In this document: one piece after another, positions 42,294 through 59,414 of the stretch | Numbering within the stretch: position 1 is the first letter of the stretch | Layout: every line of letters begins with the position of its first letter | The notes under the pieces: generated by a model | What the model saw: only the letters and a program-made list of their open reading frames with translations | Databases searched by the model: none | Told to the model about the DNA's origin: nothing | DNA from: Dehalococcoidia bacterium | Lineage (GTDB): Bacteria; Chloroflexota; Dehalococcoidia; Dehalococcoidales; JAUYDJ01 | Length of the DNA stretch: 64,000 nucleotides | Direction of reading: 5' to 3' | Assembly: GCA_020353235.1 (NCBI GenBank) | Contig: CP070693.1 | Location: 758,624 to 822,623, forward strand | Translations under genes and position numbers: made by a program

Positions 42294-44957
42294 TTAGATA
42301 TGCTCAATTCTGACGGCGCAGACCTTGAGCTCGGGCATTTTGGATATCGGGTCCAGGGCCGGGTTGGTCAGCACATTGGTCGGGTTTTCGGCAAAGTGAA
42401 AATTCATGGTCACCACGCCTACCGGTGAAACCTCGGTCAGCTCGGCTTTGGCCGTTACCTCTCCCCGCCTGGAAATTACCCTGACCATCTCGCCATCAGC
42501 AATGCCCAGAGTCGCCGCATCCTGAGGGTTTATCTGCACTAGGCTTTCCCCGAGGAAGCTATTCAGCCCCTTTACCCGGCGGGTCATCGTCCCGGTATGG
42601 AAGTGGAACAGGCTGCGCTCGGTGGTCAGAATCAAGGGGTACTTCTTATCGGGGAGCTCCTGAGACGGTTTATAAACCAGGGGCATAAACTTGCCCTTAC
42701 CCCTGGTGAACTGCTTGGTGTGGAGAATGGGTGTTCCCGGGTGCTCTGCATCAGGGCAGGGCCACTGCAAGCCACCCTTTTCCAGACGCGGATAGGAGAT
42801 GCCCCCATAGCTGGGGGTGAGGCAGGCAATTTCGTCCATAATCTGGGCGGGGTTAGTAAAATCAAAGCCCTGGCTTCCCATCTGCTGAGCAAGCTGGGCG
42901 GTAATTAACCAGTCCGGCTTAGCCTGACCAACCGGCGCTATCGCTTGCCTTACCCGCTGTACCCTGCGCTCGGTATTGGTGAAGGTGCCGTCTTTCTCGG
43001 CAAAGCTTACCGCCGGCAGGACAACATGTGCCAGCCGGGTCGTCTCCGTCATAAAAATGTCCTGAACGACCAGAAACTCCAGCTTTTCCAGAGCGGCGAC
43101 TGCCTTTTTCGCCGCCGGTTCACTCAGCACCAAGTTCTCACCAACCAGATAGAGCGCCTTGAGCTGTCCCTGGCCGGCGGCTCCAATAATCTCGGTGATA
43201 GTTAGTCCCGCTTCGGCAGGCAGGAAACAGTCCCAGGCAGCTTCAAATTTAGCCCTGATGGTGGCACTGGCTACCGCTTGATAGCCGGGGTAAACATCGG
43301 GCAGGGCGCCCACATCACAGGCACCCTGAACATTATTGTGCCCCCTTAACGGATTGACCCCGCTTGACGGCTTACCGATATTTCCGGTAAGCATCGCCAG
43401 GTTAGCCGTCGCCATCACGTTATCGGTGCCGTGCGAGTGCTGGGTAATCCCCATGGCATATAAGATTGCCGCCGGCTTGCTCAAGGCATACATCCGGGCG
43501 GCTTCAACCAGCTGCTCCCGGGGTATGCCGGTAATACCCTCGACAAAGTCAAGGTCAAAGCCCTCCAGTGATTTCTGGAAGGCGGCAAAATTCTCAGTGC
43601 GCGCCTCGATGAAGCTGGTGTCAAGCCACCCCTCATCGACAATGACCCGCATCATACCCATCAGCAGGGCAACATCGCTACCCGGCTTGTTTCTGAGCCA
43701 CAGGTCAGCGTAACGGCAGAGCTCAACCTCACGGGGGTTAGCCATAATGAGCTTGGTCCCCTTTGCCACCGCCTGCTTTATCATAAAACTGATTATGGGG
43801 TGACCGGCGGTGGTATTGGTACCGATAGCCAGGATGCAGGCCGCACCGCTAATCTCATCTATGGAGTTGGTCATGGCGCCACTGCCAAAGCTCTGCCCCA
43901 GCCCGGCTACGGTAGGGGCATGGCACAGGCGAGCGCAGTGGTCAATATTATTGGTGCCGAGCACCGCCCGGGCAAATTTCTGAATAACATAGTTGTCCTC
44001 ATTGGTCCCCTTGGCGGAAGAAATCACGGCTAACTGGTCGCCCCGGTAATGGGCCAGCTTGCTGGCAACGAGGCTCAGGGCTTCTTCCCAGGTTGCCTCA
44101 ACGAACTTCCCGTTCCGCCGCACCAGGGGAGTGGTCAAGCGCTCCGGATGGTTGACCACCTCGGCAATGCCGTAGCGCCCCCGGACACAGAGCCAGCCCT
44201 TATTGGTAGTGCCTTCCCTCTCACCCCTGACACTAGTTACCCGGTTATCGTCAACACCGAGATACATCTGGCAGCCAACGCCACAATAGGGGCAGGTAGT
44301 CAACACCTCCCGCTTTGGCTCTCCGGCCTCCTTCGGCGCCAAGGCACCAGTGGGGCAGCGGACCACGCACTCGCCACAGGATTTGCAGATTGAGTCCATC
44401 AGCACTTCATCGGCAAAGGTAGCCACCCTGCTCTCGTAGCCACGATAAGCCAGGTCAATCGCGCCGGCACAGGTTACCTCGTTACAGGTACGGACACACT
44501 TAGCACAGAGGATGCACCGGTTCGGGTCAAAGTCAAAGAAAGGGTTGGAGGCATCAACGGCCAGCGTCCGTGTTGTCCGGCGCAGGGACGGCCGGTCAAT
44601 ACCAAGATAGCCAGCCACCTTGGGCAGGTCATATTGCTGGTTCTGGGGGGAGGTGAGGTAGTCCTCGGGAAGGTCAGCCAGGATAAGCTCCACCGCAGTG
44701 CGGCGCACCTTATTGATGGCGGCCGTCTTGGTGTAAACCACCATTCCCTCAGTGACCGGGGTGGTGCAGGCGGTAACCAGATTTTGAGAGCCCTCAATTC
44801 TGACCACACAGAGGCGGCAACTTCCGTATGGCTCCAGGTCAGCGTCATGACACAGATTGGGGAGGTAGATATCAGCCGCCTGGGCTGCCTCCAGTATCGT
44901 CATCCCCTCTTTGGCCCTGATTTGCCGACCATCAATAACCAGCGAAACTGCTTTCAT
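42294..44957 (-). CDS. fdhA: formate dehydrogenase catalytic (alpha) subunit, Cys-type, with N-terminal 2Fe-2S/4Fe-4S domains
   Basis: 887 aa. NuoG-like N-terminus (GSCRLCVV), ferredoxin-like CxxCxxCxxxC motifs and the MoCo active-site block NNIDHCARLCHAPTVAG. Confidence 0.85.
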   Translation of the reverse strand: MKAVSLVIDGRQIRAKEGMTILEAAQAADIYLPNLCHDADLEPYGSCRLCVVRIEGSQNLVTACTTPVTEGMVVYTKTAAINKVRRTAVELILADLPEDYLTSPQNQQYDLPKVAGYLGIDRPSLRRTTRTLAVDASNPFFDFDPNRCILCAKCVRTCNEVTCAGAIDLAYRGYESRVATFADEVLMDSICKSCGECVVRCPTGALAPKEAGEPKREVLTTCPYCGVGCQMYLGVDDNRVTSVRGEREGTTNKGWLCVRGRYGIAEVVNHPERLTTPLVRRNGKFVEATWEEALSLVASKLAHYRGDQLAVISSAKGTNEDNYVIQKFARAVLGTNNIDHCARLCHAPTVAGLGQSFGSGAMTNSIDEISGAACILAIGTNTTAGHPIISFMIKQAVAKGTKLIMANPREVELCRYADLWLRNKPGSDVALLMGMMRVIVDEGWLDTSFIEARTENFAAFQKSLEGFDLDFVEGITGIPREQLVEAARMYALSKPAAILYAMGITQHSHGTDNVMATANLAMLTGNIGKPSSGVNPLRGHNNVQGACDVGALPDVYPGYQAVASATIRAKFEAAWDCFLPAEAGLTITEIIGAAGQGQLKALYLVGENLVLSEPAAKKAVAALEKLEFLVVQDIFMTETTRLAHVVLPAVSFAEKDGTFTNTERRVQRVRQAIAPVGQAKPDWLITAQLAQQMGSQGFDFTNPAQIMDEIACLTPSYGGISYPRLEKGGLQWPCPDAEHPGTPILHTKQFTRGKGKFMPLVYKPSQELPDKKYPLILTTERSLFHFHTGTMTRRVKGLNSFLGESLVQINPQDAATLGIADGEMVRVISRRGEVTAKAELTEVSPVGVVTMNFHFAENPTNVLTNPALDPISKMPELKVCAVRIEHI

Positions 44958-46672
44958 TTATACCTCTTATTTTCCTTGGTCAGAGCCGGGCATACCCCGG
45001 CCGGGCAATGGTGCTTAATAATATGTGCCTCAAGTTCCTTGCGGAAGTAACTCAACAGGCCCACAATGGGACCGGCGATACCACCACAGAGGGGGCATAA
45101 TGAGCCAATTGCCACTGACTCGCTGAGCTCGGCAAGCACCTTAATATCCTCGGGTTTGCCCTGGCCGCTGGTGGCATCCTGAAAAATGCTCAGTATCTGC
45201 TTGGTACCCAACCGTCCGATGCTGCATTTGCCACAACTTTCGCTGTAAGCAAAAGACATCATCATATTGACCAAATCAACCACACAGGCAGTCTCATCGA
45301 GAACCACCAGACCACCACTGCCCACCCGGCTGCCAATGCTGACCAGTCCCTCAAAGTCAATCGGCTGGTCAATCAGATTGGCCGGTATCAGACCAAGCAT
45401 CGCCCCGCCCGGCTGAAGTGCCTTGAGCTGGCAGCCATCGCTGATACCGCCGCCAATCTCTTCCACCAGCCTTCTCAGCGGCATGCCGAAGGGGACCTCA
45501 ACGATACCAGTATAGGCAATATTGCCGCTCAGGCTAAAGAGCTTGGTGCCCTTGCTGCCCTCGGTGCCGATGCCAGCATACCAATCGCCGCCCTTCTCAA
45601 TAATGGCCGGGATATTGGCTAGCGTTTCGACATTATTGACATTGGTCGGCCTCCCCCACAAGCCGTGGTAGACTGGATAGGGCGGCCGAACCCGGGGTAC
45701 CCCCCGCCCCCGCTCTATTGACTCGATTAAGGCGGTCTCCTCCCCGCTGACAAAAGCCCCAGCACCGCGCCTGATCTCCACCTTAAAACTGAAGCCCGAA
45801 TCAAGAATATTATCGCCTAATAAGCCATACCCCCTGACCTGCTCCAGGGCAACTTTGAGCCGCTGCATCGCCAGCGGGTATTCATCACCAATATAGATAT
45901 AGCCCTGACTGGCGCCAATGGCATAGGCGGCAATGAGCATCCCCTCAATTACAATGTGAGGGTCGCTCTCCAGAAGGGCACGGTCAACAAAAGTCCCCGG
46001 GTCGCCCTCATGGGCATTGCATATCAGGTACTTCACCGGGTCGGCTGATTTGCGGCAGATTTGCCACTTCAATCCGGTGGAGAAGCCGATACCGCCACCC
46101 CGGCCACGCAGCCCTGACTTCTTGACCTCCGAAATCACCTCTTCCGGCGTCATCGCCAGCGCCTTGACCAGACTGGCGTAACCGCCCCCGGCGATATAGT
46201 GATTGATGTTCTCCGGGTCAATCAAACCACAGTTACGCATCACAATGCGTTGCTGGGACTTAAGCACGGACAGCTCAAAAAGCCGGGGTATGCCTTTGAT
46301 GGCGCCCCCACCAATGGTGCCCAGAGCCAGTTCAGGGTGGGGATTATCACCAAGAATATAGTCCGTCATAAGCCAGGGGACTATCTCCGGGGTAACATTG
46401 CCATAAAGGATAGCGGGGCAATTCGGCTTGGTGATACATATTATCGGCTCGGCATAGCAGAGCCCGATACAGCCAATCTGAGTGACCGTCGCCTCAAGCT
46501 GTCGCTCGGCCAGTTGGCTATTAATCACCGCCAGCACCGGCAGGACACCTGCCGCCTGACCACAGGTAGCGGTACTGACCAGGATATGTGGTTTATCGCT
46601 CTGTTTCCGGGCTGCCCACTCTGCTTTCGCCCGCCGCTGTATCTCGGTAAAGGTCATGCCAAACCTCACCAA
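44954..46672 (-). CDS. NuoF/HoxF-like NAD(P)H-binding FMN/Fe-S flavoprotein subunit
   Basis: 572 aa. N-terminal thioredoxin-like 2Fe-2S domain, GRGGGIGFSTGLKW and NAHEGDPGTF motifs, and SCGKCSIGR (4Fe-4S). It overlaps the fdhA start by 4 nt. Confidence 0.8.
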   Translation of the reverse strand: MVRFGMTFTEIQRRAKAEWAARKQSDKPHILVSTATCGQAAGVLPVLAVINSQLAERQLEATVTQIGCIGLCYAEPIICITKPNCPAILYGNVTPEIVPWLMTDYILGDNPHPELALGTIGGGAIKGIPRLFELSVLKSQQRIVMRNCGLIDPENINHYIAGGGYASLVKALAMTPEEVISEVKKSGLRGRGGGIGFSTGLKWQICRKSADPVKYLICNAHEGDPGTFVDRALLESDPHIVIEGMLIAAYAIGASQGYIYIGDEYPLAMQRLKVALEQVRGYGLLGDNILDSGFSFKVEIRRGAGAFVSGEETALIESIERGRGVPRVRPPYPVYHGLWGRPTNVNNVETLANIPAIIEKGGDWYAGIGTEGSKGTKLFSLSGNIAYTGIVEVPFGMPLRRLVEEIGGGISDGCQLKALQPGGAMLGLIPANLIDQPIDFEGLVSIGSRVGSGGLVVLDETACVVDLVNMMMSFAYSESCGKCSIGRLGTKQILSIFQDATSGQGKPEDIKVLAELSESVAIGSLCPLCGGIAGPIVGLLSYFRKELEAHIIKHHCPAGVCPALTKENKRYK

Positions 46673-46676
46673 CCAA

Positions 46677-47804
46677 CTACTTTGCTTCTTTCAGAATCTG
46701 CTTTACTTTAGCCGCCTTCAGTCGCCCGTATATGCTATGGTTGACCATCATCACCGGCGCCAGGGAACAAGCGCCTAGGCAGGCGATGGTCTCCAGAGAA
46801 TTACTCTGGTCAGCCGCCGTCTCCCCCGACTTAATGCCCAGCTGTTTTTCCGTTTCACTCAGAATACGTACCCCGCCACAGGCATGGCAGGCAGTTCCCC
46901 GGCAAACCATGATTCGCCGCCGACCGCCGGGCTTAAGCTTAAACTGGGTATAGAAGGTGGCCGTCCCGTAGACAGTGCTGTCGGCTAAGCGCAAAAAGCG
47001 GGCTACCGCCTGCATTGCCTCCCGGGGCAGATAGCCAAATGCTTCCTGGATTTCCTGAAGAATGGGGATAAGGTCACTCTTATCATTACTGTAGCAGGCT
47101 AAAATCCCGTCCAGTTTATCTTTAATACCCTGTCCTGGGTTGTTACCCACTGATTTGACCAGACTCCAGACTATGGTCTCACAGAGCACATTGACATCCT
47201 CGGTGGCGAGGTAATCAGTGATACTACGGTCAAAGACGATGCTACCCCGGGGCGGGAACTCGTCATCACCACCCCACAGGACAAGGGTCACCGGCACCCT
47301 GGGCAAAGCCTTAAAGGTCACGGCGGCATCGCCACATTGAGTACTAACACCACCCAGCTTTTTGGCCACTTCAATCAGCCGATAAGGCTCCCGTCCAAAA
47401 TAATCTAAGAGGGGCTTTATCGCCCTGCCAGCAAAGGAAGGAAAGTAGTTGGCCCCTCCCGGTAGCTCCTTATAGGTGATCATCTGATTGGAGAGGGGGA
47501 TGCCTTTTGCCGAGATGAGATAGTGAAGTAGCAGTATCTTTTCCCTTATCGGGACCGGTTCTTCACTATCCAGAAGCGAAATCTCAATATCAGGCAGCGA
47601 GATTAAAGCAGACTGATTTAAATAATCCAGAGTGATTAATTGCTTGGCCTGGCTGTAGCCGGCGCCCGCTTTCAGGCACTGGGCTTTGACGTCTTTAATC
47701 TGGGCAAGTTGCTCGCCAGCCAGCCGATAAGCCAGCTTGTAAGCCTTATCATAGCCATACTCTCGACTTTTCGGGTCGGACAATATACGACTCTTTTTCG
47801 GCAT
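46677..47804 (-). CDS. fusion protein: uncharacterised N-terminal domain (DUF3786-like, from memory) plus C-terminal NuoE/HoxE-type 2Fe-2S domain
   Basis: 375 aa. Residues from about 225 to the end match NuoE (VCRGTACHACG...CLGACSLAPVMMVN). The N-terminal 215 aa lack cofactor motifs I can name (LLLHYL...YKELPGGANYF...LVLWGGDDEFPPRGSIVFD). Confidence 0.65.
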   Translation of the reverse strand: MPKKSRILSDPKSREYGYDKAYKLAYRLAGEQLAQIKDVKAQCLKAGAGYSQAKQLITLDYLNQSALISLPDIEISLLDSEEPVPIREKILLLHYLISAKGIPLSNQMITYKELPGGANYFPSFAGRAIKPLLDYFGREPYRLIEVAKKLGGVSTQCGDAAVTFKALPRVPVTLVLWGGDDEFPPRGSIVFDRSITDYLATEDVNVLCETIVWSLVKSVGNNPGQGIKDKLDGILACYSNDKSDLIPILQEIQEAFGYLPREAMQAVARFLRLADSTVYGTATFYTQFKLKPGGRRRIMVCRGTACHACGGVRILSETEKQLGIKSGETAADQSNSLETIACLGACSLAPVMMVNHSIYGRLKAAKVKQILKEAK

Positions 47805-47806
47805 GC

Positions 47807-48679
47807 TTAAATCTCAAGCCAGGAATGGGAATAGACCGTTTCCCCAATTAGCACCCTGACCGTCTTCACATAGGCTACTTCTTCTTCACTTAGCGCCGAG
47901 AGGTCGAGCTTTTCACCATCCATCACCCGGTAGACCAAGTCAACAATCCCTGGTTTCTGGCCACGGGCGATCAAGATAAGCTCCGGGTCAAAGGCATCAA
48001 CTATCGCCGAGGTAAGACCATACCTCATCAGCATTATCAAATAGGCCCGATTAAGATGGGGCCTGAGGTGGGTCGGGGTGCCATTGGAGACATTAGACAG
48101 ACCCACCGTTGACTTACACCCCGGCGCCAACTCCCCCAGCATACTCATGAACTCCAAGCAGGCATTCAGCTGACTCACATCTACCGATACCGGGCCGGCA
48201 ATCGGGTCAATCCAGATATCCTCATTGGCAACACCGACTTCATTAGCCTTGTAGATAAGCTCGGCGGCAATCATGCCCCTTTCGTTGGCATCCCGGGGCA
48301 TCCCCTCCTCCCCCCACAGCAGACCAATCATGGCTGCCTTATAATTCTTGACCAGGGGCAGCCCCACGGCTAATCGGGCCGGGGAGATAGAATTTATCAG
48401 CGCCTTGCCCTGATGCATTTTTAATCCCGCTTCCATCGCCACCAGGTTGGTCGTATCCAGTGACAGGGGCTTATCGGTCACCGCCTGCACCGTTTTGACC
48501 GCCCAGGCCATCAGTTCATCCCCGCCCTTACGGGCTGGGCCGATATTAATATCAATCAGGTCAACACCGGCGGCGACCTCAGCCTTGACCAAATCCTGTA
48601 TCGGCTTGGGCTCCCGCCCTTTCAGGGCCGAGCTGATATTTTGCGACATGATATTTAAATTTTCGCCAATGAGAATCAT
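47807..48679 (-). CDS. acsE: methyltetrahydrofolate:corrinoid/iron-sulfur protein methyltransferase
   Basis: 290 aa pterin-binding TIM barrel. ILIGENLN...DLIDINIGPA...LSLDTTN closely parallels AcsE/MeTr. Confidence 0.85.
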   Translation of the reverse strand: MILIGENLNIMSQNISSALKGREPKPIQDLVKAEVAAGVDLIDINIGPARKGGDELMAWAVKTVQAVTDKPLSLDTTNLVAMEAGLKMHQGKALINSISPARLAVGLPLVKNYKAAMIGLLWGEEGMPRDANERGMIAAELIYKANEVGVANEDIWIDPIAGPVSVDVSQLNACLEFMSMLGELAPGCKSTVGLSNVSNGTPTHLRPHLNRAYLIMLMRYGLTSAIVDAFDPELILIARGQKPGIVDLVYRVMDGEKLDLSALSEEEVAYVKTVRVLIGETVYSHSWLEI

Positions 48680-48688
48680 GCTAGCTCC

Positions 48689-50035
48689 CTATGGATGCCA
48701 CTGCTTGAGATAGGCAGGAATGTTGACCGCCTCGCGGGGGCCAACCAGAACCTCCCAGCCGGGCAGTTCTTCCTCCAGGCTACCGCTTTCGGCAGCCACC
48801 AGACCGGGGATGATTAGCTTGCGGTGCTTAATCTGCTCTTCAATGCCACTCTTTTTGACAAAGGGGGCAATGGTATCGGCGACAAACTTGCCGGCGGCCC
48901 ACGCCGTGACCACGGAAAGCCCACCCGTGCTTTTGACCAGAAGATAGCTGGACACACGGCTGTTCTCTATCTCCGCCGAGACGATAAAGTAGGTCAGCGA
49001 GAAGTTAGTGGTAACCAGTACCGGTGAATTCTCGGTGGGGGCGCCAATCTTATAGATTCCCTCGGTGGTAGACAGCGGCCGCTGCGGGTCGGTATAGACA
49101 TTCATCCTCTCCACCAGTAAGGGGAAAAGGCTCTCCCCGTAAAAATCGGACAGGACAATAATGCCGGCATACTTGGCCACCAAGGCTGAGGCAATCACCG
49201 CCTCTTTCATCGGGTCATCAGTCATCTCGGCGGGCAGAACAATGGTGGGGAAACCGAGCGGGCGAAACTTCTTAACTAGCGCCGCCCGGCGGATGACTAC
49301 CTGGTCTTCAAAAGCCTGACGCAGTGTCCTCGCCCCGGAATCGAGAACGATATCTTTTACTCCCACCTCGGTCAGCTTGGTGCTCAGCTCAATAAGCTCG
49401 TCAAGATTAGTAGCTTTAGCAACCACTGGGCAGGAACTCTCCTTGGCTAAATCGGCCACACGGGCTAAGTTTTCTTTAGTGGCGGCATAGAGAAGCGGTT
49501 TCCGGTCAGCGCAGACTTTTAAGCCTGCCGCCAGCACATCGGCATTATCACTCATCAGGATAAGGCTGGCGTCACCGGCCTGGGTTACCTTCTTGATGAC
49601 CGCCTCAAATTTGGCCGCCTCTCCAGAATCATTTTTAGTCGCCACCATCTCCGGGCGCAGGGTAAGCCCCACCCGCTCGTACTGGAGTTTATTCAGTTTC
49701 TCCAGCCGGGCATTGATCTCCGCCTCAACCATGGTATCACTGATGAGAATGGCCAGGCCGGGCGGATTTTCGAATCTCTTCTCATGGCGAAACATCACCG
49801 TTTCGCCACCGAGCTTCACCGCCCTCTCGCCGGTCCCCACCGTTACCACCCTGATCGGCGGGGCAGCCGCCTCCGCCAGCTTGGCTTTCGCCTCCTCAGA
49901 AACAGTGGGGCAGAGTGCCAGCTCCGTCTTGCCCGCCGCCAGCTTCATGGCAAAAGCGAGACAGGTCGGCTCCCCGCACTCCTTGCAGTTCGTTTGGGGA
50001 AGCAGCTTGTAAATCTCTATCCCGGTAAGTGGCAT
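48689..50035 (-). CDS. acsC: corrinoid/iron-sulfur protein large subunit
   Basis: 448 aa. N-terminal 4Fe-4S motif NCKECGEPTCLAFAMKLA, followed by TIM-barrel and B12-binding regions. Confidence 0.85.
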   Translation of the reverse strand: MPLTGIEIYKLLPQTNCKECGEPTCLAFAMKLAAGKTELALCPTVSEEAKAKLAEAAAPPIRVVTVGTGERAVKLGGETVMFRHEKRFENPPGLAILISDTMVEAEINARLEKLNKLQYERVGLTLRPEMVATKNDSGEAAKFEAVIKKVTQAGDASLILMSDNADVLAAGLKVCADRKPLLYAATKENLARVADLAKESSCPVVAKATNLDELIELSTKLTEVGVKDIVLDSGARTLRQAFEDQVVIRRAALVKKFRPLGFPTIVLPAEMTDDPMKEAVIASALVAKYAGIIVLSDFYGESLFPLLVERMNVYTDPQRPLSTTEGIYKIGAPTENSPVLVTTNFSLTYFIVSAEIENSRVSSYLLVKSTGGLSVVTAWAAGKFVADTIAPFVKKSGIEEQIKHRKLIIPGLVAAESGSLEEELPGWEVLVGPREAVNIPAYLKQWHP

Positions 50036-50044
50036 TTTCAGCTC

Positions 50045-52252
50045 CTATTCCAGTATCGGGTCCATACTGAGGGCAGGGTGACCTTTCTTCTGCAGGAAGG
50101 GCAGGATTTCCTCCTCAGTGACGCCAATGGTCTCATCGGCAATCATATCGGGCAGGTCAGAGATGCCTACTTCTTCGGCTCTGGCTTTGAGCCGGTCGGC
50201 AATCTCCTCTTTCAGCATCTTGGGCATCCAGACCACCCGCTTTATACCGCCGTCAGCGCTGATGAACTTGCGCTGGCAGATAGAATACTTGCTGTGGCCG
50301 ACAAAGCCGGGGGTGCTCACCCCACCACCAACAGTGCGGGCGAGAGTGGTAAATTTCATGCCGCAGGGCGTATCCTCTTTATAGCCCCGATTAACAATCA
50401 TTATCCCGTTGCACTGGGGCAGGACCGCCGCCACACACTCGCAGCAGCCGCAGGTAGTCGGCGGGTCGTGCATAATACTATAAAGATTGTAGTGGTCAAT
50501 ATTGCCCCGCGATGCCTTGTTAATGAACGCATTAACCCCCTGCCACTGCCCCAGCTTTTCATCAACCGTAGCTCCCTTTTCCACCGGCTGGTTGGGGCCG
50601 GTGGGGTTAATCTCCGAGGCTGCCTTGCAGTCCATCCAGTTATAAGAGCCACAGAGCCCGGTCCTTTCCGGACTGATGACACAAACGTGGGTCGGGGCAA
50701 AGGACTGGCACAGGGTGCAGGAGTAATAGGTATCAGTCTCTTCATCGCTCATGCCGGAGATGCGGGCATCACGCTCTTTATATACTGCCCTTGCCTTTTG
50801 GGCAATCTCCTCCACCTTATCGGCTTCGGTATAGAGCTTCACCTGCACCTTATCGAATATCTGGCCAAAATCCTGGTGCATCTTGGCGTGGAGCAGGATA
50901 CCGATATGGTTAAGCTTGAAGCCCTTCTCCGCGGCCGCCTTACCGATTCTCAGCCAGGCAATATCGCGCTGACCGATATGCATTACTCCCTGAGCATAGT
51001 TTAAGAGGTGGTGAATCTGCCGCTCTAGGATTGGTTCATTATCGGCCTGCATCTGCCGGCCGGCGAACTCAACCACGATGGCCAGGGGCAAGGTAGCGCC
51101 CTCGGTAACATCAGATATATCGGGGCCAACCACCTCCACTTTGCCATCTTCAACTTCATCCATATCTTTGGTGGTGACCCACTCTACCATCAACGACTTA
51201 CCGCCGCCACACTCTAAATAGACATCCTCTTTGCGGACTCTCTCGCCCTCAAAGGCAGGGCCGAAGGCTACCGGTATTGGCATCTCGGTTACCGTTGTCT
51301 TCAGTCCCCTTACCTCCACCGCCCGGGCGACTATCTTATCGTGGGCGACATTAGAGACAACATGCTCGTAGGTGCAGATGCCGGTGGGTAAAACCTCGGG
51401 TATCGGGGTATCGGCAATAACCGGGAACCCCCAGTTGATTGCCCCGGCGGCATTGGCATACCACTCATCGGTAACATAGCCCAGAGGCAAAGCAAAGGCA
51501 AAAACGCGGTCTTTATTGTAAATCAGGATTTTACGGAAGTCACCCGCCTCAACACCACCGAAAGACATGGCCGCTCTGGTGGCAAAGCCCATGGCAAATA
51601 CAGTAGCGCTGGTGTCCGGCCCAAAGGAAACCAGACGGGTTCCCCAGCCGATCTGCACCCCGGCCTCAACCAGCTGCTCGGCAAATCGCTTGCCGTTATA
51701 TTCACCAGCCATAAAGACGTAAAGGTTGCGCTGCTGGAGTTCCTGGGCAATCTTGGCGGCTATTCCCGGGTTTGGTGCCGCCCCCAATACGGCGGCAAAA
51801 CCGGGCGCGGTGCCGTCAACAAACTCGATGCCCCGCTTTCTCAGGATGACATCATCAGCCGCCCCCAGCCAGATATTGTCCTCGGTGACATCTTCCTGTT
51901 TAGTATAGAAATCAGGCTGTGCCAGATATCCAATCGCCTCAATGAGCTCCTCGGCAAAGAAAGTAGCCATCCCGGCATCAAGGGCCGGGGCGAGATAGGG
52001 CAAGGGGTGCTCCTCTCTTACCGGCGGTGGCAGGATAGACTTGCACTTGGCCAAAACCGTCTCCATGTCCCCCAGTTTTTCTACCTTGAGACCAGTAATA
52101 CCGTAGATTATGGGCAGATAATAGGCAGTACCGGGGAAGCCCACCGGCTCATTGGCGCCCCATTTTTCCATCGCCGCCTGCCACTCCTTCTCGGCCCGGG
52201 TGATGATTTTATGGGCTCCCCTAATCGCGGCTGAAGCAATAATCTTCGACAT
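50045..52252 (-). CDS. acsB: acetyl-CoA synthase (CODH/ACS alpha subunit)
   Basis: 735 aa. The length, the N-terminus 'IIASAAIRGAHKI' and the A-cluster region (CTLCQSFAPTHVCVISPER...CGCCE) are typical of bacterial AcsB. Confidence 0.9.
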   Translation of the reverse strand: MSKIIASAAIRGAHKIITRAEKEWQAAMEKWGANEPVGFPGTAYYLPIIYGITGLKVEKLGDMETVLAKCKSILPPPVREEHPLPYLAPALDAGMATFFAEELIEAIGYLAQPDFYTKQEDVTEDNIWLGAADDVILRKRGIEFVDGTAPGFAAVLGAAPNPGIAAKIAQELQQRNLYVFMAGEYNGKRFAEQLVEAGVQIGWGTRLVSFGPDTSATVFAMGFATRAAMSFGGVEAGDFRKILIYNKDRVFAFALPLGYVTDEWYANAAGAINWGFPVIADTPIPEVLPTGICTYEHVVSNVAHDKIVARAVEVRGLKTTVTEMPIPVAFGPAFEGERVRKEDVYLECGGGKSLMVEWVTTKDMDEVEDGKVEVVGPDISDVTEGATLPLAIVVEFAGRQMQADNEPILERQIHHLLNYAQGVMHIGQRDIAWLRIGKAAAEKGFKLNHIGILLHAKMHQDFGQIFDKVQVKLYTEADKVEEIAQKARAVYKERDARISGMSDEETDTYYSCTLCQSFAPTHVCVISPERTGLCGSYNWMDCKAASEINPTGPNQPVEKGATVDEKLGQWQGVNAFINKASRGNIDHYNLYSIMHDPPTTCGCCECVAAVLPQCNGIMIVNRGYKEDTPCGMKFTTLARTVGGGVSTPGFVGHSKYSICQRKFISADGGIKRVVWMPKMLKEEIADRLKARAEEVGISDLPDMIADETIGVTEEEILPFLQKKGHPALSMDPILE

Positions 52253-52289
52253 ATCTAATCTACTCCCCCATTTTGGTTAACTCTGGAGC

Positions 52290-54254
52290 CTAAGCTCCGG
52301 CCAGTTCGCGTCTCATCTCCATATCGTAGAGAACTCTCTCTCGTGCCTTATCAATGCCCAGCGCCTTGCGCTTCTTATCAATATGCTCAATCATAAGGTG
52401 GGCGGCACGAATCGGATCAGGCTCAAAAGCCCACTTGCCACCGTACGCTTCTTCAAAGTCTTTAAACAGGAAATCGGTCACCTCTTTGCTGCCCAGAGTC
52501 GGCCAGTTGACCCCGAATACAGTAAAGACACCGGAGGCAACAAAGTACTGACCAATAGAAATTGCCTTCTCACTCATCCACTCCGGGGCCGCCCCGGCTA
52601 CGGGCAGGTCGCTGATGTCGTCACCTAGGCCGCCATCCTTGACCATGGCCGTAGCTGCAATCAGGATGCGGCTATTATCAACACAGGCACCCATATGCAA
52701 CACCGGTGGGATGCCCACCGTCTCACACACCGAAGCCAGTCCCTCACCGGCATACTGGGCAGCTTCGGGAACCATCAAACCGGCTTTGGCACAGGCCATA
52801 GCACTGCAACCGGTCTGGATGACCAGAACATCATGCTTAATCAGCTCCTTGACCATGGCTACGTGAACATCATCGTGCTTGACCCGCGGATTATTACAGC
52901 CAACCACCCCAGCCACCCCTCTAATCCGGCCATTGATAATATTGTCATTCAGGGGGCGGTAAGAGGCACGATATAGCCCGCCCAGCAGGTAGTTGATTGT
53001 CTCGTGGCTAAAGCCGGCAATGAGGTCGGCCTTCTCCGTGGGAATGTGGATATTCTTGCCCCGATTGGGGAAGTTATCAATGGCTGCCTTGACGATTGCC
53101 TTAGCTGTCTCCACGGCATTAAGGTCATCAAAATCCATATGAGTGGCGCCCTCTATTTTAGCGCGGGGGTCGGTGGTGATAACCTTGGTATGGTAGCACT
53201 GGGCGACATCAGCTAGCCCCTGCATAATGCACTGGACATCAACCACGATTGCCTCCAGCGCCCCGGTAACTATAGCCAGCTCCTGCTGCAGGAAATTACC
53301 GGCAATGGGCACGCCGTGACGCATTAATACCTCATTGGCGGTACAGCACATACCGGCCAGATTTATTCCCTTCGCCCCCTTGGACTTGGCGTATTCAATC
53401 ATCTCCGGGTCCTGAGATACTACTGCCAGCATCTCAGCCAGCTGCGGTTCATGGCCATGGACAATAAGGTTGACCTCATCCTCTTTCAGCACCCCCAGGT
53501 TTATCTGGCCCAATACCGGGGCCGGTGTGCCAAAAAGAACATCCTGCAGGTCGGTAGCAATCATGCTACCGCCCCAGCCATCGGACAAGGCCGTCCTTGA
53601 ACCCTGCTTGATCAAGTCCTGATAGTCCTGGTCCGTCCCCATATGGGTGCGGTGCATTATCTCCACGACTTCTCTATCTATGCCTCTAGGGGCAACACCC
53701 AACTTCCGCCATAGCTCCTGACGCTTTAGCGGCGCCCGCTTCAGGAAGAGCAACTCACCCTCTTGCCTGCCGAACTCTTTCATCAGGATTTCGCCAACAT
53801 CGACGGCTATTTCCTGATTGGTGCGCTCACCGATATCAATGCCGAGTTCCAGAGCCAGCTGAAGTAATTTCTGCTCATCCTTAATTTCATAGCCGGCGGC
53901 TTCACTCTTGGCTACTGCGAGAAAGGCTTCCGCCACCCGCCGGCCGTGGTCACTGTGGGCGGCGGCACCAGCGGCAATCATGCGGGCGAAGTTGCGGGCG
54001 GCAATGGTCTCAGCGGTGGCGCCACAGACGCCAATCCGGAATCGCCTCTCTTCAGGCGTTTCCATGCCGCCGGCGGGCAGAGATACCCGGCATGGTCCCA
54101 TACTGCAGTGCTTGCAGCAACTACCCACCATGCCCACCGGGCAGGGTTGTATTACTTCTGCCCTGTCAAAAGCAGTATAAACCTTCTCTTTTTCCGCTTT
54201 TTCCAGCATCTTAATCGTCGCGATATCAATGCTCCTGCCTTTTGCTTTTGCCAT
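52290..54254 (-). CDS. acsA: anaerobic Ni-CO dehydrogenase catalytic subunit
   Basis: Cys-rich N-terminus (CPVGMVGSCCKHCSMGPCR) and C-cluster region, typical of CooS/AcsA. I chose the ATG at 54254 (GGAGGAG SD 7 nt upstream); the ORF-track start at 54287 is also possible. Confidence 0.9.
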   Translation of the reverse strand: MAKAKGRSIDIATIKMLEKAEKEKVYTAFDRAEVIQPCPVGMVGSCCKHCSMGPCRVSLPAGGMETPEERRFRIGVCGATAETIAARNFARMIAAGAAAHSDHGRRVAEAFLAVAKSEAAGYEIKDEQKLLQLALELGIDIGERTNQEIAVDVGEILMKEFGRQEGELLFLKRAPLKRQELWRKLGVAPRGIDREVVEIMHRTHMGTDQDYQDLIKQGSRTALSDGWGGSMIATDLQDVLFGTPAPVLGQINLGVLKEDEVNLIVHGHEPQLAEMLAVVSQDPEMIEYAKSKGAKGINLAGMCCTANEVLMRHGVPIAGNFLQQELAIVTGALEAIVVDVQCIMQGLADVAQCYHTKVITTDPRAKIEGATHMDFDDLNAVETAKAIVKAAIDNFPNRGKNIHIPTEKADLIAGFSHETINYLLGGLYRASYRPLNDNIINGRIRGVAGVVGCNNPRVKHDDVHVAMVKELIKHDVLVIQTGCSAMACAKAGLMVPEAAQYAGEGLASVCETVGIPPVLHMGACVDNSRILIAATAMVKDGGLGDDISDLPVAGAAPEWMSEKAISIGQYFVASGVFTVFGVNWPTLGSKEVTDFLFKDFEEAYGGKWAFEPDPIRAAHLMIEHIDKKRKALGIDKARERVLYDMEMRRELAGA

Positions 54255-54296
54255 TCTGTTACTCCTCCACTCTTTGGTTTTTGCCATATTAATTAA

Positions 54297-54671
54297 TCAC
54301 TGGCAACGCGGGCAAAGTCCGCGAAACTCCAAGATATGATAAGAGACCTTAAAGCCAGTTTTAGCGATAAGCCTCTGATTTAGCTCATTTTGCACCGGCT
54401 GGTCAACATCAAAAACATGTCCGCATTTTTCACAGCGGAAGTGATAGTGGCCCGGCACCCGGCCATCAAATCGGCTCAACGCGCCAGCCAGAGCCAGCTC
54501 TGAGATTTTTCCCTCCCATTTCAGCAATTTAAGGTTACGGTAGACCGTCCCCAGACTGATGTTGGGTATCTCTTTTCTTACCTGCTCGTAGACCCATAAT
54601 GCCGTAGGGTGGGAGTCTGTTTCCCTAACCACCCTAAGGATAGAGTCTTTTTGTTTCGTTTTCCTAGGCAC
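54297..54671 (-). CDS. Fur-family metalloregulator embedded in the CODH/ACS cluster
   Basis: 124 aa. Winged helix (ISLGTVYRNLKLL), HYHFRCEKCG and a C-terminal CPRC. It lies 9 nt upstream of the acsA ORF. Confidence 0.8.
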   Translation of the reverse strand: MPRKTKQKDSILRVVRETDSHPTALWVYEQVRKEIPNISLGTVYRNLKLLKWEGKISELALAGALSRFDGRVPGHYHFRCEKCGHVFDVDQPVQNELNQRLIAKTGFKVSYHILEFRGLCPRCQ

Positions 54672-54690
54672 GATGCTCGCTTAATCCCAT

Positions 54691-54743
54691 CTATTATAAA
54701 TAGTAACAATAACTATTATTCTTTCTCTTAATTAATTTGTCAA
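54691..54743 (-). promoter_or_regulatory. internal promoter plus AT-rich palindromic operator upstream of fur-acsA
   Basis: On the minus strand: TTGACA (54738..54743), 17 nt, AATAAT (54715..54720). The inverted repeat AATAGT-N7-ACTATT (54699..54717) overlaps the -10 element. A second repeat, CTATT-ATA-AATAG, lies at 54691..54703. Confidence 0.5.
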
Positions 54744-54746
54744 GTT

Positions 54747-55706
54747 TTATTTCCCGCTCTTGGCGGCGGTCAACTCGGTAATCATTTCCCGAATCAGTCT
54801 TATCGCTTCCGGGTGTCTCATGACGAGTATATCGGCCCCGGCCAGCAGTAAGACCATGGCTGAAATCGCCTCCAGCAGGATGCCCCTCTTTTTGGCATTG
54901 CCGAGGGCGGGCTCCTCCCCTTCTGGAATTTTGGTCTCTTTAGTCTTCCATACCTCTTTGCTGATGTTACAGATAATGGGGAACTGGAGCTTTTCATCCT
55001 GCTGGGTTAAGGCAGCCACCCTTACTCTTTCCATTACCGAGTAACAGTACTCAATACCATAGCCGAGGCTGCTAGTAGTCGGGTCAACGACCAATTTGTC
55101 ATCGGCAACGCCAAGATTACCTAGCAGGATATTGAGCTGCTTGGCCAGGTTAACATCTATCGGCGTCGACGCAATCACGGTGTGCTGATAACCAATGGCC
55201 GCGGCACCAATCTTCTTATAGTCCCCGTCTTCCACCGGCCCGATAATCAGGTCCCTGCCCTGGCAGACCTCAGCTACTTTGCCCAGCACCTCAGTGTCCT
55301 TATCGTGATTGGCCGTTGCCCAGACGATCAGGGGCACATCAACCGCATCAGCCACCTTCTTGACCACCTCAGCCGATTCATCAGCCCCGCGATTCAGGCC
55401 GTTGGGGTCGGTACCGACCATCTGCAGGCAGAGCATCTCCGCCCCGTACTCATTAACGCACTTCTTGGCCCAGGCAACCGGGTCGTCGGTCACGCCGGCA
55501 AAGGGCTCTAAAGCCGCTTCGGGCCAGTCCTCCGGTTTGGTGTCCCATATTTCCATGGCAATCCGGGGCGGGTTGGGCATCTCACCTTCAAAGAGATGAA
55601 AGGGGTAAGCATTCTGCCCGCCCACGGTAATGCTTTTATCGCCCTTGCCTAGCTTTATCTGCTTAATCAGGCCGCTATATGATATCTTAGGAACTTCAAA
55701 GGTCAT
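54747..55706 (-). CDS. acsD: corrinoid/iron-sulfur protein small subunit
   Basis: 319 aa TIM-barrel protein. The N-terminus 'YSGLIKQIKLGKG...ITVGGQNAYPFH' is typical of AcsD/CdhD. Confidence 0.85.
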   Translation of the reverse strand: MTFEVPKISYSGLIKQIKLGKGDKSITVGGQNAYPFHLFEGEMPNPPRIAMEIWDTKPEDWPEAALEPFAGVTDDPVAWAKKCVNEYGAEMLCLQMVGTDPNGLNRGADESAEVVKKVADAVDVPLIVWATANHDKDTEVLGKVAEVCQGRDLIIGPVEDGDYKKIGAAAIGYQHTVIASTPIDVNLAKQLNILLGNLGVADDKLVVDPTTSSLGYGIEYCYSVMERVRVAALTQQDEKLQFPIICNISKEVWKTKETKIPEGEEPALGNAKKRGILLEAISAMVLLLAGADILVMRHPEAIRLIREMITELTAAKSGK

Positions 55707-55718
55707 TTTTACCTGCCT

Positions 55719-55937
55719 CTAAGCTGGATTCTTTCTCTTTTCACTGCCATACCATTCTTTGCCGTACCAGTATCTCTCACCGGTCTGCAGATACTTCAGC
55801 TTCTCCTGCCGGCTGTCCAGCTTCTGGCGCCAGCGCCCGGCGTCTTTGTCCTCGGGCTTGCCCTTCTCAAAGGTCTTGCCCAGCACCTCTACCTCGGGAC
55901 GTCCCGGCGCTTTCTTTTTCTCAATCTGATACTCCAT
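55719..55937 (-). CDS. small highly charged W/Y-rich hypothetical protein
   Basis: 72 aa from the ATG at 55937 (AAGGAG SD 6 nt upstream). It has no Cys. It is packed between folD (14-nt gap) and acsD (12-nt gap). Confidence 0.5.
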   Translation of the reverse strand: MEYQIEKKKAPGRPEVEVLGKTFEKGKPEDKDAGRWRQKLDSRQEKLKYLQTGERYWYGKEWYGSEKRKNPA

Positions 55938-55951
55938 CCCCATCTCCTTTC

Positions 55952-56851
55952 CTAGGCTAGACCAGCGGCTAGCTTGGCTGCCTTTACCGTATTCATCATC
56001 AGCATGGCGATTGTCATTGGTCCCACCCCGCCCGGCACCGGGGTAATCGCCTTCGCTTTCTCCTTGACGGCTTCAAAATCAACATCCCCCACCAGGATAT
56101 CCTTGCCCTCGGCGGTCTTGCCGATGCGGTTGGTGCCGACGTCAATCACCACCACCCCATTCTTGACCATATCGGCGGTGACGAGTTTGGGCTTGCCCAC
56201 GGCAACAATCAGTATATCCGCCCGCTTGGTATGGACTGAGATATCTTTGGTCAGGATATGGCACAGGGTGACCGTACCGCCAAAGCCCTCTTTTTCCAGA
56301 GACAGCAGCGCAGCCACCGGTCGGCCCACGATATTACTGGCTCCGACCACCACCACCTCCGCCCCTTTGATATTAACTCCAGACCGGATTAAGAGCTGAT
56401 AGATACCGTGCGGGGTGCAGGGCAAAAAATCGGGCTCGCCAATCATCAGCTTGCCTACATTCACCGGGTGGAAGGCGTCAACATCCTTTCCGGGGTCAAT
56501 AAGATAGAGAACCTTGGTGCTGTTGATATGCTCGGGCAGGGGCAGCTGGACCAGAATCCCATGAATCTTGGGGTCTTTGTTCAGCTTATCAACCAGCGCC
56601 AGCAGTTCCGCCTCATTGGTATCCGCCGGCAGGTCGTGCCTCTCCGAGTAGATACCCAAGGCTTGTGATGTCTTCTCCTTCTGCCCGACATAAATCTGCG
56701 ATGCCGGGTTTTCCCCGACCAGCACCGTGGCCAGGCCCGGTACCAGGTTATGCTTCGCCTTAAGCGCAGCGATTTCCTGCGTCAGCTCCTCTTTAATTTC
56801 GCTAGCAATATCCCGGCCACTGATAATCTGAGCCGTCATTTTTACCCCCAT
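55952..56851 (-). CDS. folD: bifunctional methylene-THF dehydrogenase / methenyl-THF cyclohydrolase
   Basis: About 295-299 aa. Motifs LVGENPASQIYV, ILVQLPLP, VVVGASNIVGRP and TPVPGGVGPMT. An alternative ATG start lies at 56839. Confidence 0.95.
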   Translation of the reverse strand: MGVKMTAQIISGRDIASEIKEELTQEIAALKAKHNLVPGLATVLVGENPASQIYVGQKEKTSQALGIYSERHDLPADTNEAELLALVDKLNKDPKIHGILVQLPLPEHINSTKVLYLIDPGKDVDAFHPVNVGKLMIGEPDFLPCTPHGIYQLLIRSGVNIKGAEVVVVGASNIVGRPVAALLSLEKEGFGGTVTLCHILTKDISVHTKRADILIVAVGKPKLVTADMVKNGVVVIDVGTNRIGKTAEGKDILVGDVDFEAVKEKAKAITPVPGGVGPMTIAMLMMNTVKAAKLAAGLA

Positions 56852-56855
56852 TAAA

Positions 56856-57611: not shown

Positions 57612-57636
57612 ACCAGACCTCCGTCACCACTAACGA

Positions 57637-59400: not shown

Positions 59401-59414
59401 GGGAACCTCCTTGG

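What the first reader, a model, noticed from the sequence alone, without database searches (positions are those of the whole stretch)
46677..47804. Fusion of an uncharacterised ~215-aa domain to a NuoE-type 2Fe-2S module, wedged between acsE and the NuoF/FdhA genes
The C-terminal 150 aa form a standard NuoE/HoxE thioredoxin-like 2Fe-2S domain (CRGTACHACG...CLGACSLAP). The N-terminal 215 aa have no Cys-rich or nucleotide-binding motif. From memory they resemble the DUF3786 family, which I associate with corrinoid/methyltransferase gene neighbourhoods (LLLHYL, YKELPGGANYF, LVLWGGDDEFP...VFD). The gene starts 2 nt after acsE and ends 4 nt before the nuoF-like gene. A covalent link between this unknown domain and the electron-input module of an Fdh-NuoEF complex suggests a role in coupling. 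One possibility is electron delivery to the CFeSP/methyl branch. Another is docking the FDH flavoprotein to ACS.
Basis: partly seen in the sequence, partly recalled or inferred. Interest (0 to 1): 0.6.

Follow-up and report, generated by a model that had tools for sequence, protein, structure and literature searches.

The report
DUF3786–NuoE gene fusion in Dehalococcoidales
In one narrow group of Dehalococcoidales bacteria, an uncharacterised gene that normally ends the acetyl-CoA-synthase operon has fused in frame to the next gene, the small iron-sulfur subunit of a formate dehydrogenase; the fusion is real but rare, and it gives only a weak clue to what the unknown domain does.

Summary
Window 46677-47804 (minus strand) is a 375-aa ORF with DUF3786 (PF12654, E 7e-53) at the N-terminus and a complete NuoE-type [2Fe-2S] domain (PF01257, E 2e-49) at the C-terminus. 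It lies between acsE and nuoF-fdhA in a Wood-Ljungdahl operon of a Dehalococcoidales MAG (GenBank UCG09977.1, named only "NuoE").

It is a lineage-specific, end-to-end fusion of two neighbouring genes. In relatives, DUF3786 (~220 aa) and nuoE (~156 aa) are separate and nearly abutting. Only 1 of 80 species-level genomes has the fusion, and only one 50%-identity cluster among 1.84 billion representatives. Both halves are under purifying selection (dN/dS 0.16 and about 0.2).

DUF3786 keeps its position relative to the gene upstream. It follows acsE, metF or metV in 74 of 76 genomes. The downstream gene is nuoE in only 27 of 71. So the link to the FDH electron-input module is frequent but not obligatory.

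DUF3786 has no family-wide conserved Cys, no relative in the PDB and no literature. Elsewhere it sits beside cooC or cdhD, and in one lineage it is fused to a LacI-type regulator ahead of a CODH/ACS operon. The most likely role is a non-redox binding or accessory domain. The coupling idea is not excluded and not supported. Interest is moderate to low.

The parts
46677..47804 (-). Fused gene: 375-aa DUF3786-NuoE protein (identical to GenBank UCG09977.1)
   Evidence: ORF and translation. Pfam hits to both domains. Exact match in the public collection, named 'NuoE'.
47169..47687 (-). DUF3786 domain (residues 40-212). The folded unit spans about residues 11-220.
   Evidence: PF12654 E 6.9e-53. AF2 pLDDT 89.3, pTM 0.84. 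dN/dS 0.16.
47109..47168 (-). Junction and linker (residues 213-232, ...LVKSVGNNPGQGIKDKLDGIL...). It is the remnant of the DUF3786 C-terminal tail joined to the NuoE N-terminus.
   Evidence: Alignment of fused proteins against concatenated separate pairs: the fused form is about 5-9 residues shorter and has no stop. dN/dS 0.44-0.70. No conserved internal Met or Shine-Dalgarno site.
46683..47108 (-). NuoE/HoxE/FdsG-type thioredoxin-like [2Fe-2S] domain (residues 233-374). The ligand Cys are 301, 306, 342 and 346.
   Evidence: PF01257 E 1.9e-49. NF005722 scores 144.5 against a cut-off of 141. Cys positions. All four are invariant in alignment A5.
47807..48679 (-). acsE-like gene (methyl-THF:corrinoid/Fe-S protein methyltransferase), 2 nt upstream of the fused gene
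   Evidence: Pterin_bind. NF005719 at 220 bits, below its 259 cut-off, and NF040758. Junction sequence TAA-GC-ATG.
44954..46672 (-). NuoF-like flavoprotein with an N-terminal Cys-containing extension of about 150 aa and no C-terminal ferredoxin domain. The probable true start is ATG 46657.
   Evidence: Complex1_51K, SLBB and NADH_4Fe-4S. TIGR01959 at 458 bits. Start context.
42294..44957 (-). FdhA: formate dehydrogenase catalytic subunit with a NuoG-like N-terminus. It has Cys, not Sec, at the active-site position (HCARLCHAP).
   Evidence: TIGR01591 at 833 bits against a cut-off of 666. Pfam domains. Motif.
48689..60221 (-). Upstream part of the same Wood-Ljungdahl operon: cooC, fhs, cooC/acsF, folD, acsD, fur, cooS, acsB, acsC
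   Evidence: Pfam and NCBIfam.

Best explanation
The gene is a genuine two-domain protein. It arose in a narrow Dehalococcoidales lineage when the stop codon and short spacer between two adjacent, probably translationally coupled genes were lost.

The first gene was the stand-alone DUF3786 gene. This is the conserved last gene of the acs/methyl-branch block and always sits just after acsE, metF or metV. The second was nuoE, the first gene of a three-gene NAD(P)H-linked formate dehydrogenase module (nuoE-nuoF-fdhA).

Shown: the C-terminal half keeps every feature of a NuoE/FdsG-type [2Fe-2S] subunit.

Inferred: it assembles with the NuoF-like flavoprotein and the Cys-type FdhA to reduce CO2 to formate for the methyl branch.

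Shown: the N-terminal half is a compact alpha/beta domain with no family-wide conserved Cys and no nucleotide-binding motif.

Inferred, with low certainty: it is a non-redox binding or accessory module that serves the CODH/ACS-corrinoid-methyltransferase machinery, not an electron carrier.

The fusion ties one copy of this module to each FDH diaphorase through a linker of about 10 residues. This works because the N-terminus of NuoE-type subunits tolerates added domains. It hints that the DUF3786 protein may already work close to NuoEF in relatives where the two genes abut. It is not a general coupling device, because nearly all relatives keep the genes apart and many place the FDH genes elsewhere.
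For: Anatomy:
- Both Pfam domains score far above their cut-offs.
- The four NuoE Cys ligands are invariant.

Fusion origin:
- L001 and L002 have separate genes overlapping by 29 nt. L003 has a 15-nt gap. Both have the same neighbours as the window.
- The junction alignment shows the fused form is the concatenation minus a few residues.

Rarity:
- The top of the 5.8e9-protein search holds five fused 90% clusters at 81-92% identity. The other listed hits are stand-alone proteins.
- Only P0004 matches full length among 1.84e9 representatives.
- 1 of 80 species genomes is fused.

Real and functional:
- The two looked-up 90% clusters hold 12 and 18 members, drawn from NCBI, JGI, ENA and Logan.
- Both halves are 80-94% conserved.
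- dN/dS is 0.16 for DUF3786 and 0.18-0.23 for NuoE, at dS of about 0.3.

Position of DUF3786:
- Upstream gene: MetF 36, AcsE 35, MetV 3, out of 76 genomes.
- Downstream gene: NuoE 26 plus 1 fused, FdhA on the same strand 13, FdhA convergent 5, CooC 4, other or none 21, out of 71.

Binding-module idea:
- No Cys is conserved across the family; conserved residues are His, Tyr, Trp, Arg, Asp and Glu.
- A LacI + PBP + 2xDUF3786 protein sits directly upstream of cooC-cooS-cooF-nuoE-nuoF-acsB on three contigs.
- DUF3786 abuts cooC in L091, L136 and L150, and is one gene away in L118.
- It lies about 600 nt upstream of cdhD in L122.

Permissive NuoE N-terminus: receiver-domain-NuoE and Fer4-NuoE proteins exist.
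Against: - No experiment, solved structure or paper bears on DUF3786, so the 'binding/accessory' role is inference from context only.
- About half of the more distant DUF3786 genes sit in unrelated neighbourhoods with no recurrent partner. The commonest family is seen in 3 of 61 neighbours. This weakens any single functional assignment.
- Domain packing could not be evaluated. In the full-length AF2 model the NuoE half is unfolded for lack of alignment depth (pTM 0.58).
Confidence: 0.6

Rival explanations
1. Coupling or docking model. DUF3786 is an adaptor that physically links the NuoEF-FdhA formate dehydrogenase to the methyl-branch/ACS enzymes (AcsE, MetF, CFeSP), forming a Wood-Ljungdahl super-complex. 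The fusion hard-wires an interaction that already exists between the separate proteins.
For: - nuoE is the commonest downstream neighbour (27 of 71). The spacing from the DUF3786 stop to the start of NuoE homology is usually -1 to 52 nt, with overlapping genes in L001/L002, which fits translational coupling.
- An FDH-module gene follows on the same strand in 40 of 71 genomes.
- nuoE-nuoF also sit inside acs operons that carry DUF3786 in other arrangements (L042, L076, L118, L136, L087).
- The fused protein is under purifying selection in both halves with a short linker.
Against: - DUF3786 stays with acsE/metF when the FDH genes are convergent, distant or absent (30 of 71), and other nuoE copies lack a DUF3786 partner.
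- The fusion arose once, in a narrow clade.
- No interface could be predicted.
- Many DUF3786 genes outside Dehalococcoidia have no WL or NuoE neighbours.
Confidence: 0.2
2. Neutral fusion. An accidental stop-codon loss between two tightly packed operon genes was tolerated because both domains fold independently and the NuoE N-terminus is solvent-exposed. It carries no functional message.
For: - It occurs in a single narrow lineage.
- The linker evolves faster, with dN/dS 0.44-0.70.
- NuoE-type proteins carry diverse unrelated N-terminal domains.
- The primary synteny of DUF3786 is with the upstream genes.
Against: The fusion has persisted through dS of about 0.3 and through several species-level variants without re-splitting. 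A linker of only about 10 residues would be expected to interfere if the domains needed different locations.
Confidence: 0.15
3. DUF3786 is a maturation factor or sensor for CODH/ACS, for example handling nickel or corrinoid, or sensing a pathway metabolite. Its fusion to NuoE is incidental to that role.
For: - It is adjacent to cooC in several lineages, with CooT nearby in L091.
- A LacI-regulator fusion sits ahead of a cooC-cooS operon.
- A cNMP-binding protein lies between cooC and DUF3786 in L118.
- Neighbours include B12-radical-SAM and methylmalonyl-CoA mutase genes.
- Conserved His plus many carboxylates.
- The weak Foldseek top hits are small-molecule-binding folds (IclR-LBD, GAF, PYR/PYL), though not significant.
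Against: - All of these links are anecdotal, one to a few loci each.
- The Foldseek hits have E >= 0.14 and TM <= 0.24.
- There is no Cys/His-rich metal site typical of Ni chaperones.
Confidence: 0.2
4. Spurious N-terminal extension or mis-assembly, with the true gene being nuoE starting near residue 220.
For: GenBank and JGI name the protein simply 'NuoE'.
Against: - Strong DUF3786 HMM match and a confident fold.
- dN/dS 0.16.
- The same frame appears in more than 30 independent sequences from four data sources.
- There is no conserved internal start.
Confidence: 0.02

Closest known systems
NuoE (Nqo2) / HoxE / FdsG thioredoxin-like [2Fe-2S] subunits that pair with NuoF-type flavoproteins. 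One example is FdsG of the FdsGBA(D) NAD+-dependent formate dehydrogenase of Rhodobacter capsulatus (from general knowledge).
   Same: The C-terminal 150 aa is a full-length PF01257 match with the CX4C...CX3C ligands. It sits directly upstream of a NuoF-like gene and a NuoG-FdhA fusion gene.
   Different: It carries a 220-aa DUF3786 domain at its N-terminus. It scores below the NCBIfam FdsG equivalog cut-off (134.6 against 198). The gene is embedded in an acs operon.
Stand-alone DUF3786 proteins (~210-230 aa) of Dehalococcoidia Wood-Ljungdahl clusters
   Same: 57-65% identity over residues 1-220, the same position after acsE/metF, and the same conserved residues.
   Different: They end in a stop codon, and nuoE, when present, is a separate gene.
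Orf1/Orf2 hypothetical proteins of the Acetobacterium woodii acs cluster (Awo_c10690/10700), between acsV and acsD (PMC3315566, PMC6925170)
   Same: Uncharacterised genes of about 215 aa (647 and 659 nt) inside a CODH/ACS operon.
   Different: Whether they are DUF3786 members was not verified here, because the sequences could not be reached. This is a lead from size and my own memory only.
LacI-PBP-2xDUF3786 protein (P0122, GCA_052744975.1)
   Same: It contains DUF3786 domains 39% identical to the window's and sits next to CODH/ACS and nuoE-nuoF genes.
   Different: DUF3786 is fused to a DNA-binding regulator, not to a redox subunit, and is present in two copies.
NuoE-type proteins with other N-terminal domains: receiver domain (P0165, P0261) or Fer4 (P0183)
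   Same: The same principle of adding a domain at the NuoE N-terminus.
   Different: The added domains have known roles (signalling, electron transfer). DUF3786 has none known.

Membership tests
NuoE/HoxE thioredoxin-like [2Fe-2S] ferredoxin (PF01257; NCBIfam NF005722) | HMM match above the curated cut-off over the full domain | tested here: met
   PF01257 at 167.7 bits against 24.8, profile 3-144 of 145. NF005722 at 144.5 against 141.
NuoE/HoxE thioredoxin-like [2Fe-2S] ferredoxin (PF01257; NCBIfam NF005722) | Four cluster-ligand cysteines (CX4C ... CX3C) | tested here: met
   C301, C306, C342 and C346 are present and invariant in 30 aligned sequences.
NuoE/HoxE thioredoxin-like [2Fe-2S] ferredoxin (PF01257; NCBIfam NF005722) | Partner NuoF-type FMN/NADH flavoprotein encoded next to it | tested here: met
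   The gene 44954-46672 has Complex1_51K, SLBB and NADH_4Fe-4S.
NuoE/HoxE thioredoxin-like [2Fe-2S] ferredoxin (PF01257; NCBIfam NF005722) | Actually binds a [2Fe-2S] cluster and assembles with NuoF | not testable with these tools
   Needs protein biochemistry or spectroscopy.
DUF3786 (PF12654) | HMM match above the gathering score over the full domain | tested here: met
   179.2 bits against 27, profile 3-174 of 176.
DUF3786 (PF12654) | Family-conserved residues present (LHY, G117, Y120, F124, R127, GD158-159, W177, D180, E182, D192, E202-D203) | tested here: met
   These columns are nearly invariant in the 84-sequence alignment A2, numbered on the window protein.
FdsG, formate dehydrogenase gamma subunit equivalog (NCBIfam NF004638) | Score above the equivalog cut-off | tested here: not met
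   134.6 bits against a cut-off of 198. It probably works like FdsG but is not filed as that equivalog.
Electron-bifurcating HydABC/Hyl-type NuoEF modules | The NuoF homologue carries C-terminal 2x[4Fe-4S] ferredoxin domains | tested here: not met
   The window NuoF-like protein has no Fer4 hit. Homologues in L001/L002 do.
RACo/AcsV reductive activator of the corrinoid protein | Fer2 + RACo_linker/middle/C-terminal ASKHA domains | tested here: not met
   No such Pfam hit in the fused protein. A separate RACo gene exists in relative L001.

The most novel reading that the evidence does not exclude
DUF3786 is a dedicated, previously unrecognised scaffold subunit. It docks an NAD(P)H-linked NuoEF diaphorase (with FdhA, or in other lineages with CODH or MetFV) onto the methyltransferase/corrinoid/ACS machinery, so the Wood-Ljungdahl pathway of Dehalococcoidia runs as a physical super-complex. 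The fused gene in this window would be a natural 'Rosetta stone' for that contact.
Probability: 0.15. Interest if true: 0.7.

Novelty: new variant of a known kind. Interest (0 to 1): 0.38.

Why it matters
DUF3786 is one of the few genes conserved in Wood-Ljungdahl clusters that has no assigned role. In Dehalococcoidia it follows acsE, metF or metV in 74 of 76 species genomes.

The fused form is a natural construct in which the unknown domain is covalently tied to a well-understood FDH subunit. This gives a handle for co-purification or cryo-EM that could show what DUF3786 touches.

If the fusion is only a tolerated accident, it still corrects the public annotation. The protein is named just 'NuoE', and the DUF3786 half goes unmentioned.

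Tried and rejected
- **Profile searches against PDB sequences.** A1 and A2 found no real relative. The TALE-repeat hits are a 30-residue low-complexity match summed over repeats, with 0 stretches passing on their own.
- **Full-length AF2.** The alignment had only 6 sequences over the NuoE half, which came out unfolded (pLDDT 68.7, pTM 0.58). It says nothing about domain packing.
- **Paired alignment.** Adding NuoE-only representatives misaligned them onto the N-terminal half, so alignment A6 was discarded.
- **Genome scan.** The diverse alignment A2 was too divergent to seed the scan, so A1 was used. This limited the genome survey to Dehalococcoidia-like sequences.
- **Reverse-order protein P0180** (NuoE + C-terminal half of DUF3786). 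It lies on a 2.1-kb contig (header coverage 2.4x) between PQQ/BamB-like and FG-GAP genes. I judged it unreliable and did not use it as evidence.
- **Second database search.** The search with profile A2 returned only the same close clade.
- **Promoter/terminator scan.** Counts are not above shuffles.
- **PADLOC.** No hit.
- **Literature.** 'DUF3786' occurs in one unrelated paper and 'PF12654' in none. The deep-sea Chloroflexi paper discusses the FDH and the Wood-Ljungdahl pathway, and none of the passages retrieved mentions this gene.
- **Internal start for a free NuoE.** No conserved Met or Shine-Dalgarno site at the junction. V217 is Leu in three of the six other fused sequences.

Full report
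**1. What is there**

The stated coordinates hold a single ORF on the minus strand (46677..47804, ATG start, 375 aa).

Pfam finds two domains:
- DUF3786 (PF12654), residues 40-212, 179 bits against a cut-off of 27, E 6.9e-53.
- The NuoE-type thioredoxin-like [2Fe-2S] domain (PF01257), residues 233-374, 168 bits, E 1.9e-49.

NCBIfam recognises only the C-terminal half. The NuoE equivalog NF005722 scores 144.5 against 141. The FDH gamma equivalog NF004638 scores 134.6, below its cut-off of 198. The four cluster ligands are C301, C306, C342 and C346.

The operon on the minus strand reads: cooC, fhs, cooC/acsF, folD, acsD, fur, cooS, acsB, acsC, acsE, the fused gene, a NuoF-like flavoprotein, a NuoG-FdhA-type formate dehydrogenase, then rpoB and rpoC. 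The FdhA active-site position holds Cys (HCARLCHAP).

acsE ends 2 nt before the ATG. The NuoF-like gene more probably starts at ATG 46657, behind GGTGAGG, than at TTG 46672. That makes the downstream gap 19 nt, not 4.

The exact protein is in GenBank as UCG09977.1, 'MAG: NADH-quinone oxidoreductase subunit NuoE [Dehalococcoidia bacterium]', on a 1.12-Mb contig.

**2. The N-terminal half is real**

- Its start aligns with the starts of stand-alone homologues.
- AlphaFold2 on a 70-sequence alignment gives a compact alpha/beta domain with pLDDT 89.3 and pTM 0.84.
- Against the two fused relatives with DNA available, dN/dS is 0.16 for DUF3786, 0.18-0.23 for NuoE and 0.44-0.70 for the 20-residue junction, at dS of about 0.3.
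- The same frame is seen in five 90%-identity clusters. Two of them, with 12 and 18 members from NCBI, JGI, ENA and Logan, were inspected.

**3. How the fusion arose**

A search of 5.8 billion proteins put five fused clusters (81-92% identity) at the top. The other 115 hits listed are stand-alone DUF3786 proteins of about 210-250 aa, at 57-64% identity.

A full phmmer pass over 1.84 billion 50%-identity representatives found a single representative (P0004) that covers both domains in this order.

In relatives the two genes are separate but nearly touching, in the same context:
- L001 and L002: acsE, DUF3786 (225 aa), nuoE (157 aa, overlapping by 29 nt), nuoF, fdhA.
- L003: acsE, metF, DUF3786, a 15-nt gap, nuoE, nuoF(-gltD), fdhA.

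Fused proteins were aligned against 24 concatenated separate pairs. The fused form is the plain concatenation with the stop and about 5-9 tail residues removed (...LVKSVG-NNPGQG-IKDKLDGIL...).

L005 and L006, from the fused lineage, have the window's gene order. L006 (DATKYY010000057.1, Dehalococcoidales) also continues into rpoB.

**4. Which neighbour does DUF3786 stay with?**

I surveyed 80 species-representative genomes, almost all Dehalococcoidales or Dehalococcoidia.

| Position | Neighbour | Count |
|---|---|---|
| Upstream (76 evaluable) | MetF | 36 |
| | AcsE | 35 |
| | MetV (DUF5981) | 3 |
| | CooC | 1 |
| | other | 1 |
| Downstream (71 evaluable) | separate nuoE | 26 |
| | fused nuoE | 1 |
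| | fdhA, same strand | 13 |
| | fdhA, convergent | 5 |
| | cooC, convergent | 4 |
| | metF | 1 |
| | nothing recognised | 21 |

DUF3786 is therefore the conserved terminal gene of the acs/methyl-branch block. The FDH module is a frequent neighbour but an optional one. Other nuoE copies in the same loci have no DUF3786 in front of them (for example L016, L042, L051 and L076).

**5. DUF3786 outside this clade**

In 80 more divergent metagenomic loci, about half repeat the acs context. The rest are scattered. Sixty-one immediate neighbours of the scattered ones share no recurrent Pfam family; the commonest is seen 3 times.

A few cases are informative:
- A 763-aa LacI + periplasmic-binding-domain + 2xDUF3786 protein sits directly upstream of cooC-cooS-cooF-nuoE-nuoF-Fer2-acsB. 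It is reproduced on three contigs.
- DUF3786 is followed after 2 nt by cooC, with cooT nearby (L091).
- The order acsB-acsC-nuoE-nuoF-cooC-(cNMP-binding protein)-DUF3786 occurs in L118 and, without the cNMP-binding gene, in L136.
- DUF3786 lies about 600 nt upstream of a cdhD gene in a low-GC locus that I take, without testing, to be archaeal (L122).
- B12-radical-SAM genes (L160) or S-adenosylhomocysteine hydrolase and methylmalonyl-CoA mutase (L090) lie nearby.

The recurring theme is CODH/ACS and corrinoid chemistry, but each link rests on one or a few loci.

**6. What the domain might do**

Across 84 diverse sequences no cysteine is conserved. The nearly invariant residues are L93-H94-Y95, G117, Y120, F124, R127, F136, G158-D159, W177, D180, E182, D192, L199 and E202-D203. 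So it cannot be an Fe-S electron carrier.

No PDB sequence or fold relative was detected. The library holds no paper on it.

Its fusion to a transcription regulator, and its appearance as a tandem pair there, argue for a binding module (for a protein or a small molecule) over an enzyme. This is inference.

The NuoE N-terminus is a known place for added domains. Receiver-NuoE and Fer4-NuoE proteins turned up in the same search.

**7. Verdict on the interpretation**

The observation and the family assignment are right, and synteny is conserved. The proposed coupling role is neither supported nor excluded.

For it:
- frequent, tightly spaced DUF3786-nuoE adjacency;
- a selected fusion with a short linker.

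Against it:
- a single narrow origin;
- DUF3786 stays with acsE/metF even when the FDH genes lie elsewhere;
- no redox motif;
- no interface could be predicted.

My best reading is a lineage-specific fusion of two operon neighbours. The NuoE half does the ordinary FDH-diaphorase job. The DUF3786 half remains a non-redox accessory of the ACS/methyl-branch machinery, now tethered to FDH.

**8. Novelty and interest**

The architecture is already present in public databases with precomputed Pfam hits, under the name 'NuoE'. I found no description of it in the searchable literature.

It is a new variant of a known kind: a NuoE-type subunit with an unusual N-terminal domain. The interesting open question is the function of DUF3786 itself, and this fusion offers an experimental handle on it. 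Interest is moderate to low (0.38).

Noticed in passing
window 54297-54671 (-), with a promoter-like site at 54743-54715 (-): A Fur-family regulator gene (124 aa, PF01475) sits inside the acs operon between acsD and cooS. It is preceded by the best sigma-70-like match of the region (TTGACA-17-AATAAT, 11 of 12). In relatives L001 and L003, acsD is followed directly by cooS, so this looks like a lineage-specific insertion, possibly a metal-responsive control of CODH/ACS.
   Followed up: partly
window 34273-42112 (-), also L006 and L106: The Wood-Ljungdahl/FDH operon runs straight into rpoB-rpoC on the same strand. A promoter-like site lies at 42264-42236 in the 181-nt gap. The fdhA-rpoB adjacency recurs in the fused-lineage genome L006 and in metagenomic locus L106.
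   Followed up: no
window 44954-46672 (-); L001, L002, L003: The NuoF-like subunit varies strongly between relatives. Here it has an N-terminal Cys-containing extension of about 150 aa and no C-terminal ferredoxin domain. L001/L002 homologues carry C-terminal 2x[4Fe-4S] domains. The L003 homologue is fused to a GltD-like NAD(P)H/FAD module (1022 aa). This suggests different electron-donor or bifurcation chemistry for the same FDH.
   Followed up: no
L087 8001-10292 (also L088, L089); protein P0122: A 763-aa LacI HTH + periplasmic-binding-like domain + two DUF3786 domains sits directly upstream of cooC-cooS-cooF-nuoE-nuoF-Fer2-acsB. It is a candidate regulator of a CODH/ACS operon that uses DUF3786 as an extra module.
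   Followed up: partly
L087 17096-18292 onward: The AcsB homologue downstream of P0122 is annotated as 1713 aa, with two intein (Intein_splicing + LAGLIDADG) insertions in the ACS beta subunit.
   Followed up: no
proteins P0165, P0261 (and P0183, P0258): NuoE-type proteins with an N-terminal response-regulator receiver domain (322 and 293 aa). Others carry an N-terminal Fer4 domain, or Fer4 together with short FAD/NAD(P)-binding-motif hits. The NuoE N-terminus repeatedly acquires extra domains.
   Followed up: no
L118 5394-5882, L113 665-1153: A protein of about 162 aa lies between cooC and DUF3786 at the end of an acsB-acsC-nuoE-nuoF-cooC operon. The L118 copy has a cNMP-binding domain and no other Pfam hit at E <= 1e-4. 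The L113 copy has the same length and position but was not scanned.
   Followed up: no
L001 15856-20678 (-), L016, L051, L061, L062: A second NuoE-NuoF pair sits next to MetV(DUF5981)-MetF in several Dehalococcoidia loci, with a HydC/NuoG-N-like 2Fe-2S protein in L001. This suggests an NADH-linked MTHFR built on a NuoEF module.
   Followed up: no
L086 659-1417 (protein P0180): A 252-aa ORF has NuoE followed by the C-terminal half of DUF3786, the reverse order. It lies on a 2.1-kb contig (header coverage 2.4x) between PQQ/BamB-like and FG-GAP genes. It is probably a chimera or a decayed gene and remains unexplained.
   Followed up: partly
window 49784-51004 (+): A 406-aa ORF lies antisense to acsB. 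It is most likely a chance open frame in GC-rich coding sequence and was not examined.
   Followed up: no
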